Positions 11,119 to 54,865 are shown, numbered from the stretch's first letter. The stretch is 64,000 nucleotides of DNA from Curvularia clavata (GCA_023920165.1 CP089276.1:1798001-1862000), one strand, 5' to 3'. Numbers and translations are program-made. Notes: generated from the letters alone by a model not told the origin.

Positions 11119-13474
11119 TCATACTGGTTCTAGGCTAACACCGCCGAAGGAGAATCCCCCCACCCATTTTCTCTCCCAAGGTTTTGAAATTACGAATGCA
11201 AGCTCGCCGTCGTTCGCGACATCAATGAGAGGGCCTGGTACTTTGTACCAGCCCGTATTTCGAAATGTGTTCCACATCCCTGGGTCAATGTGTAACTCCT
11301 TGAAGCCTTCCAATAGAAGTACTTTAGCCACCAGCGGATTCTTGTCAAGATCGAACTCCTCGTAAAGAAAGTCTTGGTATCGTTTGGGCCTGCCAACACT
11401 ACAGATCAACGGCCATGGATAGAAGAAGCCAGAGTCTAACTTAGGGGGCGCCTCAGCCTCGACAGCTGATGGGAAAAATCTCTCACGTAAGGAGTTCTCC
11501 TGAGGAAGCTCTGGTATGAATCCGGACGGTCTATTGGTAGGGGAGTACTTTCGACCTGCAATAAACCAGAATGTCCACAGTGTACGGTAGCGGCCGGGGA
11601 TGATCCACCGGTCTTGTCCACGGATTTGGAGATTGCAAGTACGCCGACACGTGATGATACAGTTGCTGACTGGCCGATTGCCTTGTTTGTGGCAATGCGC
11701 ATCAACCCTTACGCCAGCAGGATAGCCACTCAAGTCTACATTCTCACGGTAGTAATAGTAGCGACCGGGGTAGTCTGTGTCAGGGACACCCTCATTCGAA
11801 GCCCGAAATTTCTCAACTGCAATGTAATGTGTTTGTGGAGCGACAGGGAAAGAGTCTGAACGCGCTGATAACCATGCCTTTTTTCGGCGTTCCTCATCAG
11901 CTTCCGCTATTAAGATATTGTCAGCCTGTGGAATAGTGAAAAGATGCCCAATCCTCAATTGTCTGATGCAAAGAGACTGCAAAACGAAGCGTATAACCCA
12001 AGAGAGACGATAGTTCCGTTTGGAATGAGTCACAATCTTGCAAAATACTGTCGCCTCCTCTACACATCTACAAAATGCTCATCCCTACAAAAACTTGGCC
12101 TAGTATGGTCCACAACTTCAGTAGATAACAACCGACGCCTTGACAAATAGGATGGCTCGGCACGTGATGGTGCTTCGAGTAATAGGCGATCGTTGGGACA
12201 GTCCAGAAAGATCTTAGTGAAAAGCCTACGACTGTATTGTATGATCGAAGTAAGTTACTTACCTTGCGATATTGTTTCCGAGAGCTTCTGAACACAAGCA
12301 TCCGTTTTGGGTGCCATATCTCCCTTGTCCAAGTAGTACTCCGTATGTGTCGTGATTTTTCCTGTCTCTTTCCATTCCTCGAGGCCAATCATTCCTAGAT
12401 TCGGAACGTTGAAACGGAAATATCTGCCATCTTTCGTCATCGCTCTCCCTGAATCGCTCTCGAGGAAAGTGTTGGCCGTCTCCTCGGTCTCAGTCGCGAT
12501 AGTCTTCAGGCTTTTCACGATCTGGACCAAGTTTCCCCCAAACTCTTCCATGGGTGCATCTCCCGTTCCGATGCTGACCAAGAGTGGTTCTTCAGCTGGC
12601 CAGAGGCTTCGTGCTTCCTCGTATGCAATATGAACAGGGTTGTTGTTCACCAACCCGCCATCAAGAAATGTCTGTCCCCCAATCTCGATAGGAGGGAAAA
12701 AGGTGGGTGCTGCCGATGTTGCACGACAAGCTTGCCATATTAAGCAGTTCTCGACAACTTTACGACGAACTTTGGTAGGATGCAGGTAAGAACGAAAGAT
12801 CGCAAGCTTGGTGATATCTTGATGGGTGCAAGCGACGAAGCTGGTAGATGAGATTCAAAGTTAGTTGTCTGCTCCTTAAATCATGAAGCGCTCCACTCAC
12901 ACTTTGCAAGCTCTACCGCACTGATCGATCCCATTATCTTCCTTGAGCAGAGCCAAATCTGGATCGCTTTCGCCATGTTTTAGATTTGCTTTGATGACTT
13001 GTCGGATAGATTTCTCGAGCTCTTCAACGTCGAAGGTAGCACCGGCGCTCCAGAGCCCAATTGTAGATGCTATGATATTCACATTGGAGCGCAATGGAGT
13101 AAAAGATTGCACCGAAAGCGTTTCGTATGCTGCGCGACAATCTGCTATGCTCATTCGAAGGCGCCCAAGCATTACCGCAATGATCCTAGAAGCAGCTCGT
13201 AAGCATCTACAGAGACAAAAGCGGAACGTGTATCTCACCCGCCAGTGCTAGTCCCACCGATAAGCTGGAACGTCTGCCACGGCTCCTGAGGCTCAAGTCC
13301 TTTCTCTTGGCGGTTTCGATTGACTCTCTCCATGATATGTTGTAAGATGATGAGCGCAGAAAGACCGCGCACTCCACCACCGTCTGTGCCCGACAAGTCA
13401 ACTTTCCAGCTCAGTAGATATATATCATATTACTCACCGATAGAGAGAATGTTTGGCCGTCGACTATCTGCCAT
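11119..13474 (-). CDS. Patatin-like phospholipase, probably spliced to a ~260-aa C-terminal domain (exons 13474-13438, 13383-13239, 13185-12901, 12840-12263, 11906-11119)
   Basis: ILSIDGGGVRG oxyanion motif, GTSTGG nucleophile, RATSAAPTFF, FLDGG catalytic Asp; phase-1 donor at 12262 is compatible with the phase-1 acceptor at 11907. The patatin part is secure, the last splice is inferred. Confidence 0.8.
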
Positions 13475-14029
13475 TATGAATAGACTGATGCACAGCTAAA
13501 ATAACAATTGGTGAGGTCGACTTTGGAGGTGATAGTATGAATTGAAAGTCTGAATTGAAAGTCTCAGGAAGTGTCGGATACTCTGGTAGCCTGGACACGC
13601 CTCGGTTCTGTTGGAACATTCATTCCGCCTTGTGCCCTGAGCCTTGTCCATGTGATACTTATAGAGAACCGGTGAAGTGAATAAAGCTTCATGTGGCTGA
13701 GCTATTGCACAAATCCTTGTGCATATACTCAGCCGCAAAAAAGAAAAGAGTTTCAGCTCTCAAACGCGCTAGAGGTTGTGGGAACGAAATCTCTGGGTTG
13801 CTCAATTAAACAGGCTAAAGGCGGAGTAGGTGCAGCTGATGGCGTGTACCGTACTGCGAGGCGCAAGACCAGACCGGAGAATGCTTGAACGTCTGAAAGG
13901 GAGGGGAGCGGAGCCTTCCCCTCGCCAGACAGGGTACGGTCCACGGTTAGGTGAGCACTATGAACGAATGATTGCTATTGCATGGTCTTTCCGTTCTTTT
14001 AGTTTTGCCAGTCTAGCCAGCTGGTCATC

Positions 14030-14410
14030 AGCTGCTCTTCCTCTCGAAGACGGTTTTCACAAGTTTGGCGTAGGTCGTGATGTACTTGTCGACATTCATC
14101 TCAGGGCGGTCGAGCATGATTACGGTCAGTCTGCCAACGTCAGTTGCGTTAGCATCACTCTAGGGCTACGTACCCTCCTGTGCTAGTACCACCAATGAGG
14201 GGAGAAAGATTTCCTATCAGCCTTGTACGCGCTGCCGCTGGACGATGAGCAGGCTGGTTGTCCGCACGATGGGCTGGGGCTGAGAGCTGATGGTGGAGGG
14301 GTGGTCAGTCGAAGCTGTTAGACTGGGCCAGGGCTGACGCAAGCGGGGTCCGCCTGTCGCACCGTCCAAAGAATAGAGAAATAATACATGTCGGCTGAGG
14401 AATGTACACA
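14030..14410 (-). pseudogene. Second, decayed patatin-like gene fragment
   Basis: Reverse strand reads LYSLDG..., LIGGTSTGG, a GTACGT...CAG intron, then LTVIMLDRPEMNVDKYITTYAKLVKTVFE; truncated afterwards. Confidence 0.7.
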
Positions 14411-52421: not shown

Positions 52422-53081
52422 GATAGAGGATTACATGTCCACCTGATTAGCTGTCAGGGACCGGGACTGACTATGTCATCTCTAAGCCATGCAATGGAAA
52501 TTAGCTAGGTTTCTATTCAAGCAAAAAGCAGAAAGATGCTGTGAACGTGATATAATATAAGCACATATAGTAAAATGGAGGTGACATGATGGTTTCACAG
52601 TGACAATCGTATATATCCAAAGGCGTATTTCTCTACAGCACCTGTATGCCCTTGGTACAAAGACTACGGACTGCCCCAGGTAACTTTCCCGGCTTACGGA
52701 TTGAGATGCATGGCACTCCTTGCATACGCCGTTCTATAGAATGAAATAACTCGACGTTGCCGACATACGTGTCAAGCTATTCGTACGCTGGGCTGGGGTG
52801 TTTACTGCACTACTGCCGTCCGAAGTCTCCAGAACTCAATTGTGAATGCGCCAGCGTATTATAGTTGCGTGAAAATCATGTGGCGAGAAATCTGGGGCAT
52901 GGTGAGACTATACACTGTGCTATTGACTTCCGACATAGATGTGTTGTTTTACAAATTGTCATATGGCTAGTAAGCATGTGTACGCTCAAGCAATCCTCTT
53001 TGCGCCTAGAAGCATTTTGTATCTGCCGTAGCTCGCAATGACGTCCAATCTACAAATATTTGAACAACTCTACCCTGTCTA

Positions 53082-54865
53082 CTAGAAGTCCAGACCCGTC
53101 TCTTCCGGCGGTGAAATCATTGGCGATGCAGAAAAGACCAATCCCAGCCCCTTGACAGAATCTGATGACTCGCGCCTGGAGCTCGGCATTGATGATTGAA
53201 AAGCTGACAACTGCCGAGGTAACGGTGAATCAAATGTATGCGACTTGGGGATTTTGGACATCGGCAACTGTGCATACGCCCAAACCAAGTCCTCGTTGTA
53301 TTCATCGTTCACAAATAACCAGAAAAGGCGGTGACATGCTGCAATGGTGGATTCTTGACCGAGAAATGGCGGTGCAATGATCGTGAGGTATCCGTTCGTG
53401 CACTCCAATAAATCTTCTGGACTGCGAGGAGGCATTGTGCTCACGCGTGGGTTGCGAGTTCGCTCTCGCAGTAGGTTGGCGAGACGGGATAGGGGCAAAC
53501 CTCGAGCCGCATCTCCTTTCCGACCCACTGCTGCGATAGTCTTGAGAGCTACCGAACAGCTGTCAGCCGATTGCTGCTTGATCATTTTGATCGCGGTGTT
53601 GAAATGATCTTGGACATTTCTCGGTATACGTTTTGGCATGAGATCGAGAGCGTCGGGGGAAGACAGACTGTGAATTCTGTCAACGGCAAGCTTTGCTTGC
53701 AAAATGCTTCCGTCAACATAACGTGCGATATTTTGTATCCACTCATGGCTTTTGTTACCGTGCATAGTATTTCTAAAGGCGAGTCCGAACGATGATAATG
53801 GAGGTTCCAATGGATCCTCCAAGGTCATGAATCCTAGATCGCCATGCTCCCTTTCGAGATCCCATACTAGGTACTCTGCTATGACACCGTCGGACATGCC
53901 ATCGAGCGTCAGATTGTAATACTCTGGGGATTTCCAAGTACCTACCGAATCGCTGATTATGGAGTTAGATGGTGCTATTGTCATGGCTCATATTTCATCT
54001 GGGTATTTTCCAGGCCGGACTGTACGTACCACTGCTGACAAGGAGTGTCTTCTCTCTTGCAATTAATGCAAATATCCTTTTGTTGGCATTTAGAGCAGCG
54101 CCAAAATACCTTGAGGGGTGAGTCTTGCGGGTGATAGTCGCACCATATGGTCATTGCTGGTTCATGCCTGGGTAATCGTGACGTGACAAGTATTTTCAGC
54201 CCCTCATCTTGCAGGATATCCAACTGCTGTTGTACCAGTTCCCGTAGCACTGGACTGCACTGGTCTAGATGGTCGATGATAAGCACCGCGTCTCCCTTTC
54301 TGACCAACTCCGCAATCCTTAAGCGGAGTGCTTGTGCAATGGAGTCGATCCGTCTGGAAGCTCTCTGCCCTGTGCGCAGAAGTTCTTTGTATGCGCCATA
54401 CGTCAACCTTGTCGCAGGATCGATATCGCACCTAGCAGGCGACACTTGGTTGTATATGGTATCCAAGAGATCCTCTAAGAAGGCGAGTTCATGCTCGATT
54501 CTGCGATGGTTGATGAAGATGTTGGCAAGCTGGAAGGTCTGCTCTTCTGACGCCGATATGCTCTCTCTCAAACGTTTGGCTACTAGTGCTGCGAATGTTG
54601 TCTGACTATGCCATGAGCATCTTCGTCAGTGCTCTAGACAGAGACTGACCTTTCCAGCTCCCGGCCCGCCAACAACATGGAGTTGCCAATGGTCTTTACA
54701 TTGTAGCCACTCGATAAAGAGCTCACTGGTAAGTATACTATCAAACAGTGGTTCGTAAATGTCGGTTGCGATAGGGAAATGCTCTTGGATCGCTGTGTGA
54801 ATGACCATGTCTCGTGCAAAGACATCGCCATCATCTTCACTTGTGGTCTGCCTAATAGCGGACAT
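53082..54865 (-). CDS. Divergent NACHT-like NTPase with ZZ-type Cys cluster, multi-exon
   Basis: FIEWL...LHVVGGPGAGK|TT P-loop split by an intron, LIIDHLDQC Walker B-like, KILVTSR, CD..WRCSKC...DICINC; start codon uncertain. Confidence 0.7.

What the first reader, a model, noticed from the sequence alone, without database searches (positions are those of the whole stretch)
11119..54865. Fungal 'defence island': dense concentration of cell-death and non-self-recognition modules
Seen within ~44 kb: 2 patatins (1 relic), PNP, HeLo-like, 3 NACHT pieces, 2 CHAT proteases (1 relic), a probable gasdermin, 3 HET genes (1 relic), a kinase relic and an F-box gene. Established: patatin, PNP_UDP, HeLo-like, HET, CHAT and kinase domains are recognised effector domains of fungal NLR and regulated cell death systems. 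Inference: the tRNA-anchored array is a birth-and-death hotspot for immune cassettes, analogous to bacterial defence islands. Uncharacterised neighbours (34018-34667, 59779-61220, 16397-18560) become candidates by association.
Basis: partly seen in the sequence, partly recalled or inferred. Interest (0 to 1): 0.72.

Follow-up and report, generated by a model that had tools for sequence, protein, structure and literature searches.

The report
Fungal cluster of cell-death genes
A 44-kb stretch of a filamentous fungus's chromosome really is crowded with intact and decayed cell-death and self/non-self recognition genes, but it looks like an ordinary fast-turnover region of a kind already described in fungi, and is not anchored on tRNA genes.

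Summary
Most of the inventory stands. Of 15 listed items, 12 have tool support, 2 have weak support (patatin relic, third NACHT piece) and 1 was not found (kinase relic).

Supported items:
- a four-exon patatin gene
- a PNP_UDP fragment
- a HeLo-like/NACHT pseudogene with 9 in-frame stops
- a NACHT gene
- a TPR-CHAT protease divergently paired with a gasdermin-fold protein, a pair type already published
- a deleted duplicate of that whole module
- two HET genes, plus one HET gene killed by a single nonsense codon
- an F-box gene

The region also holds unrelated genes (terpene synthase, MpaB-like oxygenase, a secreted protein) and transposon debris.

"tRNA-anchored" fails. There is one real tRNA-Asp. 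The other copies belong to a dispersed repeat of about 300-400 nt with a tRNA-Asp-like tail, and one copy lies outside the island.

Turnover ("birth and death") is supported by a colinear module duplication, by deletions and by RIP-like nonsense mutations. Enrichment could be tested only against a uniform model built on counts from other fungi, because no genome was held.

Clustering of fungal NLR, HET and sensor-executioner genes is already in print, so this is a new member of a known kind.

Best lead: a helical domain of unknown function ending in WDWWPL. In other fungi it is fused to HET or HeLo-like domains.

The parts
11119..13414 (-). Patatin-like phospholipase gene. It has about 4 exons and encodes about 610 aa: a patatin domain plus a conserved C-terminal half of unknown function. 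It appears intact.
   Evidence: Pfam Patatin E 1.1e-13 on ORF 12258-12854 and E 0.0029 on 13238-13429. P0083-P0085 (611-632 aa, PF01734) align to 13414-13259, 13208-12264 and 11907-11122 at 52-66% identity. P0083 matches PADLOC phospholipase effector models at E 2.4e-38. The introns are inferred from GT..AG ends and from gaps in the homologue alignment.
14002..14199 (-). Patatin relic. It is short, frame-broken and only weakly supported.
   Evidence: Exact 9-residue match to the gene's nucleophile motif at 14173-14199. P0083 residues 54-108 align at 26% identity, E 0.088. Pfam found nothing.
14650..14732 (+). Intact tRNA-Asp(GTC) gene with a 10-nt intron.
   Evidence: ARAGORN. Rfam tRNA 49.2 bits against a gathering score of 29.
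16397..18581 (-). Gene of unknown function. It encodes a helical domain of about 330 aa ending in WDWWPL, then exons for a C-terminal part with hydrophobic segments.
   Evidence: Seven homologues (P0087-P0093) cover 18581-17586 at 39-64% identity. P0089 carries HET in front of the domain, and P0088 carries the end of PF17111 in front of it. P0094 joins 17708 to 16400 through three exons at 68-84% identity. No Pfam or PADLOC hit. The AlphaFold2 model is helical, mean pLDDT 56.
18576..18713 (-). NACHT-type P-loop fragment fused in frame to the WDWWPL domain. The window's own called protein, P0086, starts here.
   Evidence: Pfam NPHP3_N 27.7 bits (cut-off 24.8), model positions 20-65 of 164 only. 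P0086 is 100% identical and 380 aa long.
18741..19338 (-). HeLo-like N-terminal domain pseudogene with 9 in-frame stop codons. NACHT-flank sequence follows it in shifted frames.
   Evidence: PF17111 reaches 31.3 bits when the stops are read as X. Stops listed.
19560..20143 (-). PNP_UDP_1 5' fragment. It is frame-shifted inside a proline-codon run and truncated.
   Evidence: Pfam PNP_UDP_1 E 2.8e-5, model positions 2-123 of 233. The continuation in the next frame was seen.
21380..21650 (+). Probable NACHT relic, with a stop, frame shifts and a missing Walker A motif. Weakly supported.
   Evidence: Read by eye. A contig of run X23 has 30 extra letters at 21462-21465, depth 3.1. Pfam and the HMMER library search were negative.
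21710..21909 (.). Dispersed repeat downstream of the CHAT gene. A second copy lies at 34684-34868.
   Evidence: 73% identity between the two copies. Summed contig depth at 21755-21756 is 4534 in run X4, against 144 for its contig over the CHAT gene.
22848..26360 (-). TPR-CHAT protease gene (het-Q2-like). Single exon, apparently intact.
   Evidence: CHAT E 1.7e-36 at residues 897-1192, TPR_10 E 7.5e-15. His and Cys motifs are present. A 6.5-kb contig of another organism's run covers 22168-26000 at 97% identity.
26689..27519 (+). Gasdermin-fold gene (het-Q1-like), 276 aa. It is divergent from the CHAT gene, 329 bp away.
   Evidence: 81 homologues, none with a Pfam domain. AlphaFold2 core pLDDT 70-88. 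In the VIA alignment the top 22 rows are gasdermins; RCD-1-2 scores Z 8.6, rmsd 4.1 over 143 aligned residues.
28479..28896 (+). Copy of the 'arm + tRNA-Asp-like tail' repeat.
   Evidence: Rfam tRNA 22.1 bits, below the gathering score.
30170..32794 (+). F-box gene (about 30763-32170) enclosed by inverted repeats of about 90 bp.
   Evidence: F-box E 1.2e-7. Inverted repeats at 30170-30261 and 32703-32794, 81% identical.
32989..33109 (+). Shorter copy of the tRNA-Asp-like repeat.
34018..34667 (+). Two-exon gene for a Cys/His-rich protein of unknown function.
   Evidence: ORFs seen. No Pfam or PADLOC hit. The Atlas finds only unnamed Ascomycota clusters, score 0.91.
34684..36006 (.). Decayed colinear duplicate of the CHAT-gasdermin module: downstream repeat, CHAT residues 687-944 only, 'arm', tRNA-like tail. 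The gasdermin and both ends of the CHAT gene are deleted.
   Evidence: tblastn. Colinear blastn pieces at 67-84% identity.
36598..38436 (+). HET-domain gene, apparently intact.
   Evidence: HET E 2e-32, full model. First Met located.
39612..40783 (-). HET-domain pseudogene. A single TAG sits where the conserved Trp before the 'DAICIDQ' stretch is expected, and there is a further break towards the 3' end.
   Evidence: codon and context. Read-through gives HET model positions 1-146 of 146, E 1.3e-20.
45278..48743 (.). Unrelated genes inside the interval: an MpaB-like oxygenase (-) and a terpene synthase (+).
   Evidence: MPAB_Lcp_cat E 1e-25 and Terpene_syn_C_2 E 3.8e-24.
49857..52421 (+). HET-domain gene with introns, apparently intact.
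   Evidence: HET E 6.9e-7 on one exon and 2.1e-10 on the next. Translations.
53082..54865 (-). NACHT gene with one intron after Walker A. No recognised effector domain or repeat domain.
   Evidence: NPHP3_N E 7.7e-5. Translations.
63718..64000 (+). Further copy of the 'arm + tRNA-Asp-like tail' repeat. It lies outside the finding and is cut by the window end.

Best explanation
The interval is a fast-turnover, repeat-rich segment of a Pezizomycotina chromosome. Several unrelated regulated-cell-death and allorecognition genes have accumulated there, and they are continually duplicated, rearranged and inactivated.

Each unit works on its own:
- The TPR-CHAT protein is a sensor-protease. It is inferred to cut the C-terminal tail off the neighbouring gasdermin, which then forms membrane pores.
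- The HET proteins, the stand-alone patatin phospholipase and the NACHT protein are separate death or recognition components.

Turnover is driven by local duplication and ectopic recombination between dispersed repeats, followed by deletion and RIP-like C-to-T mutation. The repeats include one whose tail derives from tRNA-Asp. The tRNA-like sequences are passengers or recombination substrates, not integration anchors.

The resemblance to a bacterial defence island is co-location only. Shown here: domain content, gene states, the duplicated module and the repeat family. Inferred: protease-gasdermin cleavage, the cause of turnover, and accessory status.
For: Domain inventory.

Gasdermin-protease pair:
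- Gasdermin fold with Neurospora RCD-1 as best match.
- A TPR-CHAT gene lies 329 bp away in divergent orientation.
- This is the same architecture as Podospora Q1-6/Q2L-6, where cleavage was shown. In that study 19% of 1,884 fungal gasdermins lay within 10 kb of a CHAT gene (PMC8851545, passages read).

Turnover:
- A colinear second copy of the whole module, with internal deletions.
- Nine in-frame stops in the HeLo-like gene, and one TAG in the HET relic where a conserved Trp is expected.
- TpA/ApT of 1.30 and 1.22, with (CpA+TpG)/(ApC+GpT) of 0.85 and 1.00, in the relic zones 20400-22200 and 27520-30170. Intact genes give 0.55-0.77 and 1.14-1.42. The RIP thresholds I compare these with are recalled.
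- A chimeric ORF joins a NACHT P-loop fragment to an unrelated domain.

Repeats:
- One true tRNA, plus four degenerate copies that share a changed 5' part and up to about 300 nt of upstream 'arm'. One of the four lies outside the island.

Published precedent:
- 26% of 2,349 Sordariales NLRs lie in 272 mostly non-paralogous clusters (PMC12258605, section 10 read).
- 61% of the 69 Neurospora HET genes cluster with lineage-specific genes near telomeres (PMC10684091, passages).
Against: - No genome-wide background could be computed. Enrichment therefore rests on a uniform null with counts borrowed from other fungi.
- Accessory status is not shown. The only other run of the same species label that covers the stretch is identical to the window (X2) and may be the same strain.
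- RIP indices are only moderately shifted, and GC stays at 40-50%.
- The flanking repeats are better conserved (67-84% DNA identity) than the CHAT coding remnant (31-37% protein identity, one 71% DNA piece). This would also fit independent insertion of repeats next to two old paralogues.
- Cleavage of this gasdermin by this protease is untested.
Confidence: 0.6

Rival explanations
1. The region is a true counterpart of a bacterial defence island: immune cassettes are gained by site-specific insertion at tRNA-Asp-linked sites, and co-location is itself selected.
For: - Four of the five tRNA or tRNA-like sites sit between death-related cassettes, and all five are on the same strand.
- The CHAT-gasdermin module is bounded by the same two repeats in both of its copies.
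- A 6.5-kb contig of another organism's run holds 22168-26000 of the module at 97% identity. By its length it runs on to about 28.6 kb, so it seems to end near those repeats.
- Some fungal giant elements target genes transcribed by RNA polymerase III, namely 5S rDNA (bioRxiv 10.1101/2021.12.13.472469, passages read).
Against: - Only one site is a functional-looking tRNA.
- The degenerate copies share a derived 5' end and a long upstream arm, so they are copies of one repeat and not independent tRNA genes. One of them lies outside the island.
- Pfam found no integrase or recombinase domain in the window.
- Contigs commonly break at repeats, so the contig ends carry little weight.
Confidence: 0.13
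2. The interval is cargo of a degraded or larger Starship-type giant mobile element whose captain gene lies outside the window.
For: Starships often carry patatin-like phospholipases and NLRs with varied domains (bioRxiv 10.1101/2021.12.13.472469, passages read). The window holds both, together with metabolic genes and transposon debris.
Against: - Pfam found no DUF3435 captain, DUF3723 or ferric reductase in any ORF of 70 aa or more in the 64-kb window.
- No element ends were identified.
- The contig is 4.75 Mb long, and the DNA beyond the window could not be read.
Confidence: 0.12
3. The clustering is coincidence plus reader selection. These are abundant gene families, and the cluster has no biological meaning.
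For: - The window was picked because it looked dense.
- Taken singly, the family counts barely survive or do not survive correction for 754 windows: NACHT 2 loci, corrected value 2.0; HET 3 loci, corrected value 0.09.
Against: - The pooled count gives a corrected P of 2e-5.
- The flanking 20 kb of the window hold none of these domains.
- Relics and a duplicated module show local turnover.
- The same tendency is published for NLR and HET genes.
Confidence: 0.05

Closest known systems
het-Q1/het-Q2-like gasdermin-protease gene pairs of filamentous fungi, CHAT type (Podospora anserina Q1-6 / Q2L-6; Clave et al. 2022, PMC8851545)
   Same: [quoted passage not shown] The two form an adjacent, divergently transcribed gene pair.
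   Different: Cleavage and killing are untested here. This gasdermin family has no Pfam model and no sequence-level hit to any solved gasdermin. A decayed second copy of the module lies 8 kb away.
NLR clusters of Sordariales (PLoS Genet 2025, PMC12258605)
   Same: Non-paralogous NB-domain loci lie within 40 kb of each other, in genomes where RIP opposes tandem duplication.
   Different: Only one NACHT gene is intact here and the others are fragments. The cluster is dominated by non-NLR death genes (HET, gasdermin/CHAT, patatin). The organism is probably not a member of the Sordariales.
Clusters of HET-domain and lineage-specific genes in Neurospora crassa (PLoS Genet 2023, PMC10684091)
   Same: HET genes are grouped with young or unannotated genes, large non-coding spaces and duplications.
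   Different: The position relative to a telomere is unknown here. The Neurospora study did not report gasdermin, CHAT or patatin partners in the passages I read.
Bacterial defence islands (Makarova et al. 2011, as cited in PMC12881547)
   Same: Unrelated death or defence modules are co-located together with pseudogenes and mobile-element debris. The patatin homologue matches bacterial phospholipase effector models.
   Different: There are no operons and no integrase, there is no demonstrated integration hotspot, and there are no cross-genome statistics. The gasdermin and the CHAT protein do not hit the PADLOC models.
Starship giant mobile elements (bioRxiv 10.1101/2021.12.13.472469)
   Same: The cargo types (patatin-like phospholipase, NLR, metabolic genes) match.
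   Different: No captain, DUF3723 or FRE gene and no element ends are seen in the window.

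Membership tests
Fungal gasdermin / CHAT-protease two-gene cluster (het-Q1/het-Q2-like) | Gasdermin-fold protein of about 250-300 aa | tested here: met
   The AlphaFold2 model has mean pLDDT 59 with a core at 70-88. In the VIA alignment the top 22 rows are gasdermins; RCD-1-2 scores Z 8.6, rmsd 4.1 over 143 aligned residues. Foldseek's best hit is E 8.6e-3, and its top 7 rows are all gasdermins. This is fold-level evidence of moderate strength. There is no sequence-level hit to solved gasdermins.
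Fungal gasdermin / CHAT-protease two-gene cluster (het-Q1/het-Q2-like) | A gene with an S8 or CHAT protease domain within 10 kb, usually adjacent | tested here: met
   CHAT E 1.7e-36. The two start codons are 329 bp apart, in divergent orientation.
Fungal gasdermin / CHAT-protease two-gene cluster (het-Q1/het-Q2-like) | The protease is a multidomain protein with repeat (TPR, ANK or WD40) or NOD modules | tested here: met
   TPR_10 E 7.5e-15, plus TPR-S, TPR_8 and TPR_2 in the N-terminal 500 residues.
Fungal gasdermin / CHAT-protease two-gene cluster (het-Q1/het-Q2-like) | Caspase-like catalytic His and Cys are present | tested here: met
   The motifs 'HFACHG' at residue 1040 and 'LSAC' ending at residue 1095 are present. 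Assigning them as the catalytic dyad rests on recall, not on a tool.
Fungal gasdermin / CHAT-protease two-gene cluster (het-Q1/het-Q2-like) | The protease cleaves the gasdermin and releases a toxic pore-forming part | not testable with these tools
   This needs co-expression and a cleavage assay.
Defence island in the bacterial sense | Unrelated defence systems are co-located more often than expected, shown genome-wide or across genomes | tested here: inconclusive
   The only test was a uniform Poisson model with counts from other fungi (corrected P 2e-5). The source genome is not held.
Defence island in the bacterial sense | Association with an integration hotspot (tRNA gene, integrase) or a mobile element | tested here: not met
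   There is one true tRNA. The other sites are copies of a dispersed repeat. Pfam found no integrase or recombinase domain in the window.
Defence island in the bacterial sense | Content varies between strains | tested here: inconclusive
   Only one other DNA run of the same label was laid, and it is identical to the window.
Fungal NLR cluster (two or more NLRs less than 40 kb apart, with fewer than 8 non-NLR genes between them) | Two or more NLR genes that meet the spacing rule | tested here: not met
   There is only one intact NB-domain gene (53082-54865). The other NB loci, at 18.7 and 21.5 kb, are fragments. The rule would be met only if pseudogenes were counted.
Starship element | [quoted passage not shown] | tested here: inconclusive
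   No Pfam hit among 249 ORFs of 70 aa or more in the 64-kb window. Elements reach 76-195 kb, so a captain could lie outside the window.
tRNA gene | Cloverleaf with a paired acceptor stem that scores above the Rfam or ARAGORN threshold | tested here: met
   This holds for 14650-14732 only. The copies at 28807, 33020, 35917 and about 63920 fail it.

The most novel reading that the evidence does not exclude
Fungi may have genuine multi-system immune neighbourhoods in which guilt by association works.

The concrete case here is the gene at 16397-18581. Its helical domain of about 330 aa, ending in WDWWPL, follows a HET domain in one homologue and a HeLo-like domain in another. It has no known family or fold, and here it sits behind a decayed HeLo-like/NACHT head. 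It could be a new regulatory or sensor partner of fungal death effectors, used in place of the NOD-plus-repeats part of NLRs.

In addition, the CHAT-gasdermin pair with its two bounding repeats may behave as a unit that duplicates.
Probability: 0.2. Interest if true: 0.6.

Novelty: new member of a known kind. Interest (0 to 1): 0.4.

Why it matters
Fungal regulated-cell-death genes are the least explored branch of comparative immunity. Reviews already note that their clustering recalls bacterial defence islands.

A well-dissected example shows which parts of that analogy hold and which do not. Co-location of unrelated systems and rapid turnover hold. tRNA anchoring and integrases do not.

The window also yields practical leads:
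- an apparently intact TPR-CHAT/gasdermin pair that can be tested directly;
- a new domain that partners HET and HeLo-like domains in other fungi;
- a clear picture of how duplication, deletion and RIP-like mutation recycle such genes.

By itself the window does not establish a new principle.

Tried and rejected
- **Kinase relic.** Not found. Pfam gave no kinase hit on 249 ORFs of 70 aa or more or on 288 ORFs of 40-69 aa. Stop-as-X read-through of 40921-43703, 21001-22202 (+), 13431-14632 (-) and 27521-30171 also gave none. Six-frame motif searches found no kinase motif in a kinase-like context. The gaps at 14750-16400, 32170-34000, 38440-39780, 44170-45280, 48400-49700 and 52420-53085 were searched only as ORFs of 40 aa or more.
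- **Whole-frame translation of long stretches.** The 48-reference read-through was too large to print.
- **Third NACHT piece.** Pfam found nothing, and a phmmer search of the 63-aa ORF against 1.84 billion representatives gave 0 hits.
- **Earlier notes of this scan.** Nothing for this genome, for the gasdermin sequence or for the first word search; the second word search returned only unrelated findings from other genomes.
- **ESM Atlas.** The WDWWPL domain gave only low-recognition HECT rows (0.89, 113 shared features), which I read as chance. The Cys/His-rich protein gave only unnamed Ascomycota clusters.
- **Fold of the WDWWPL domain.** The model is helical with mean pLDDT 56. Foldseek's best hit is E 0.97, so there is no usable match.
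- **PADLOC.** No hit for the gasdermin, CHAT, HET, NACHT, F-box or unknown proteins.
- **Gasdermin alignment profile against PDB sequences.** 0 hits at E up to 10.
- **Sequencing runs.** No RNA holder is listed.
  - Runs X21 and X23 carry the same species label. X21 holds a spliced record, so I read both as RNA. They cover only parts of 6.0-7.4 kb and a few repeats, which says nothing about presence or absence of the rest.
  - Run X4 has no cover at 85% identity or better over 6001-12000 and most of 15.3-19.3 kb. This is a hole in cover, not evidence of absence.
- **Complex prediction of the CHAT domain with the gasdermin.** Not run. It is an enzyme-substrate pair of a published type.
- **Neighbour 59779-61220.** ORFs 59782-60696 and 60726-61349 have no Pfam hit. 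I did not pursue them. They lie 5 kb beyond the last death-related gene, past an S41 peptidase gene.

Full report
**What the window is.** It is eukaryotic, intron-bearing DNA of 43-51% GC. The best named protein hits are from filamentous ascomycetes: Bipolaris, Phaeosphaeriaceae, Zopfia, Stipitochalara and Pseudogymnoascus. It is therefore a Pezizomycotina genome, perhaps a dothideomycete; I did not determine the species. One protein of the window is on record from a 4.75-Mb contig. No whole genome is held for the window.

**Inventory.** I scanned all 249 stop-to-stop ORFs of 70 aa or more against Pfam. I also scanned 288 ORFs of 40-69 aa between 10.5 and 55.5 kb. Inside 11119-54865 the hits are:
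- Patatin, 12258-12854, E 1.1e-13, with its first exon at 13238-13429.
- A NACHT-type P-loop, NPHP3_N at 27.7 bits, at the start of ORF 17586-18734.
- PF17111, which the tool names PigL_N and which I recall as the former HeLo-like N-terminal family, at 19102-19719.
- PNP_UDP_1 at 19676-20389, covering only the first half of the model.
- CHAT plus TPR at 22851-26429.
- F-box at 30733-31023.
- HET at 36382-38433, at 39782-40420 and at 49701-51109.
- NPHP3_N at 53984-54625.

The same interval also holds an MpaB-like oxygenase (45281-46747) and a terpene synthase (47862-48398). The 20 kb of flanks contain none of the death-related domains. They hold an S15 peptidase, a zinc-finger/fungal transcription factor, an FAD mono-oxygenase, an S41 peptidase and a methyltransferase.

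**The patatin gene.** ORF 11122-12078 has no Pfam hit. It is nevertheless the C-terminal half of patatin proteins of 611-632 aa (P0083-P0085, 52-66% identity), which align to all exons from 13414 to 11122. The stops between exons coincide with GT..AG introns, one of which begins GTAAGT, so the gene looks intact. It is a stand-alone phospholipase, not an NLR. Its closest homologue matches PADLOC phospholipase effector models at E 2.4e-38. The 'patatin relic' is a fragment of about 200 nt at 14002-14199. It has an exact copy of the nine-residue nucleophile motif and a 26% alignment at E 0.088. That is weak but plausible.

**The gasdermin-protease pair.** ORF 26689-27516 encodes 276 aa. It has 81 homologues, all unnamed and without Pfam domains. 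An AlphaFold2 model built from 51 sequences has a core at pLDDT 70-88 and mean pLDDT 59.
- Foldseek's seven best PDB rows are all gasdermins, though the best E is only 8.6e-3.
- The VIA second look puts gasdermins in the first 22 rows. It is led by Neurospora RCD-1-2 (Z 8.6, rmsd 4.1, 143 aligned) and the RCD-1 pore (Z 8.1). Cholesterol-dependent cytolysins follow at Z 5.1 or less.

This is the architecture of Podospora Q1-6/Q2L-6. In that study 80% of 1,884 fungal gasdermins had a protease gene within 10 kb, 19% of them CHAT-type, and the CHAT domain processed the gasdermin (PMC8851545, passages read).

**Broken genes.**
- *HeLo-like gene.* It starts at 19338 and runs in one frame through nine stop codons. 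Read with X at the stops it scores 31.3 bits against a cut-off of 27.2. NACHT-flank sequence follows in shifted frames, and then the P-loop.
- *PNP_UDP piece.* It shifts frame inside a run of proline codons and then stops resembling the family.
- *HET relic.* It has a single TAG where the conserved Trp before 'DAICIDQ' is expected. Read through, the full HET model is matched at E 1.3e-20.
- *Third NACHT piece, 21380-21650 (+).* It is visible by eye over three frames, with a stop, and the Walker A motif is missing. A low-depth (3.1) contig of run X23 carries 30 extra letters at exactly 21462-21465, which I read as a Walker A motif. Pfam and a full-library phmmer search found nothing, so I rate this piece as weak.
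- *Kinase relic.* I could not find one by any route.

**A duplicated module.** Using the CHAT protein as query, tblastn finds three pieces at 34903-35659, corresponding to residues 687-944. Sensitive blastn shows that the surroundings are colinear:
- 21710-21909 matches 34684-34868 at 73%.
- 23598-23662 matches 34903-34967 at 71%.
- 28479-28678 matches 35652-35867 at 67%.
- 28763-28896 matches 35873-36006 at 84%.

The second copy is thus a duplicate of the whole unit: downstream repeat, CHAT, gasdermin, 'arm' and tRNA-like tail. It has lost the gasdermin and both ends of the CHAT gene. This is direct evidence for duplication followed by decay.

Two relic zones show dinucleotide ratios typical of RIP, whereas intact genes do not. 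The stops in the broken genes are of the kind produced by C-to-T or G-to-A changes. The RIP thresholds I compare with are recalled.

**The tRNA question.** ARAGORN with introns allowed and Rfam agree on one tRNA-Asp(GTC) at 14650-14732. The copies at about 28807, 33020 and 35917 keep the D-loop, anticodon arm, T-arm and 3' acceptor strand, followed by a T-run. Their 5' acceptor strand does not pair, however, and they share a derived upstream sequence. Rfam gives at most 22 bits. Two of them share a further 200-300 nt of 'arm'. The same arm plus a more decayed tRNA-like tail recurs at 63718-64000, beside a methyltransferase gene and outside the finding. These are members of one dispersed repeat family with a tRNA-Asp-derived 3' end, not tRNA genes used as insertion sites. 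Pfam found no integrase, recombinase or Starship captain domain in the window.

**Other repeat material.**
- A 173-bp tandem repeat at 20653-20999.
- An inverted-repeat pair of about 90 bp enclosing the F-box gene.
- Stretches at about 29.0-29.95 kb that look to me like remains of a pogo/Fot1-type transposase. That reading is by eye and from recall only.

**The uncharacterised neighbours.** The stretch 16397-18581 is one gene.
- Its upstream part, 18581-17586, is a conserved domain ending in WDWWPL, with seven homologues. One homologue (P0089) has a HET domain in front of it, and another (P0088) has the end of PF17111 in front of it.
- A Bipolaris protein links the end of this domain through introns to exons reaching 16400, at 68-84% identity.
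- The domain has no Pfam or PADLOC match. It models as helical at low confidence and finds no fold.
- Here it sits behind the decayed HeLo-like/NACHT head, and the called protein P0086 begins at the P-loop fragment.

For this gene, then, 'candidate by association' gains independent support from domain fusions in other fungi.

The gene at 34018-34667 encodes a Cys/His-rich protein known only from unnamed ascomycete clusters. I did not pursue 59779-61220.

**Is it more than chance?** Without the genome I could only apply a uniform Poisson model. I used 56 NLRs per genome (4,613 in 82 Sordariales), 69 HET genes (Neurospora) and 4.4 gasdermin clusters per species (1,617 in 366 species). I took the genome size as 33 Mb, the size of the run that best holds the stretch. 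The pooled expectation is 0.17, against six well-supported loci: two NACHT, three HET and one gasdermin pair. P is 3e-8, or 2e-5 after correction for 754 windows. Taken singly, the families barely survive or do not survive correction. The null is unrealistic, because these families are known to gather in variable regions.

**Population evidence.** A second run with the same species label covers 6001-26000 with identical contigs, so it adds nothing independent. A run labelled as another organism holds a 6.5-kb contig that covers 22168-26000 at 97% identity (117 differences in 3,833 bases) and runs on past the CHAT gene. The module therefore exists almost unchanged elsewhere. Nothing more can be concluded from the laid contigs.

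**Comparison with what is known.** All the ingredients are published:
- gasdermin/CHAT pairs (PMC8851545);
- NLR clusters that are mostly non-paralogous (602 of 2,349 NLRs in 272 clusters, PMC12258605, section 10 read);
- HET genes clustered with lineage-specific genes (PMC10684091, passages read);
- patatin-like and NLR genes as frequent Starship companions (bioRxiv 10.1101/2021.12.13.472469, passages read).

A 2025 review states that clustering of fungal sensors and executioners 'resembles' bacterial defence islands (PMC12881547, passage read). My two searches on fungal defence islands listed no paper that demonstrates multi-system fungal islands statistically. That is a statement about those two listings only.

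**Verdict.** The 'birth-and-death' reading is supported. The tRNA anchoring is not. The defence-island analogy holds for co-location only. This is a good, well-resolved example of a known kind of fungal genome region, with one interesting lead, the WDWWPL domain.

Noticed in passing
window 16397-18581 (-): A conserved helical domain of about 330 aa ending in WDWWPL has no Pfam or PADLOC match and no usable fold match. In other fungi it follows a HET domain (P0089) or a HeLo-like domain (P0088). Here it is fused in frame to a NACHT P-loop fragment and continues into exons with hydrophobic segments.
   Followed up: partly
window 28479-28896, 32989-33109, 35652-36006, 63718-64000 (+): A dispersed repeat family of about 300-400 nt. 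Its 3' end is a tRNA-Asp-like sequence with an unpaired acceptor stem, followed by a T-run. All copies have the same orientation as the one intact tRNA-Asp gene. Its nature (SINE-like or otherwise) is unresolved.
   Followed up: partly
window 30170-30261 and 32703-32794: Inverted repeats of about 90 bp (81% complementary) enclose the F-box gene as a 2.6-kb unit. This may be a transposon-like capture.
   Followed up: no
window 20653-21075: A 173-bp tandem duplication and a 41-bp tandem duplication. Over 20675-21341, summed contig depth in the run of the same organism label is about 930, against about 46 elsewhere, so this is a multi-copy element.
   Followed up: partly
window 22168-26000: A run labelled as a different organism holds a 6.5-kb contig that is 97% identical over the CHAT gene and extends about 2.6 kb further, towards the gasdermin.
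   Followed up: partly
window about 19690-19720 (-): The PNP_UDP fragment changes frame inside a run of proline codons. This could be a real slippage mutation or an assembly error in a simple repeat.
   Followed up: no
window about 29000-29950 (+): Two stretches whose stop-riddled translation looks, by eye and from recall, like the N-terminal part of pogo/Fot1-type transposases. The zone has RIP-like dinucleotide indices.
   Followed up: no
window 45278-48743: An MpaB-like oxygenase gene and a terpene synthase gene sit side by side in the middle of the 'island'. They may form a small secondary-metabolite pair.
   Followed up: no
window 43809-44165 (+): A small ORF of about 118 aa with a hydrophobic N-terminus like a signal peptide. 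No family match.
   Followed up: no
window 6065-6892 (-): A contig of run X21 skips 6279-6350 in the transcription-factor gene, consistent with a spliced 72-nt intron. It differs from the window by about 5% although it bears the same species label.
   Followed up: no
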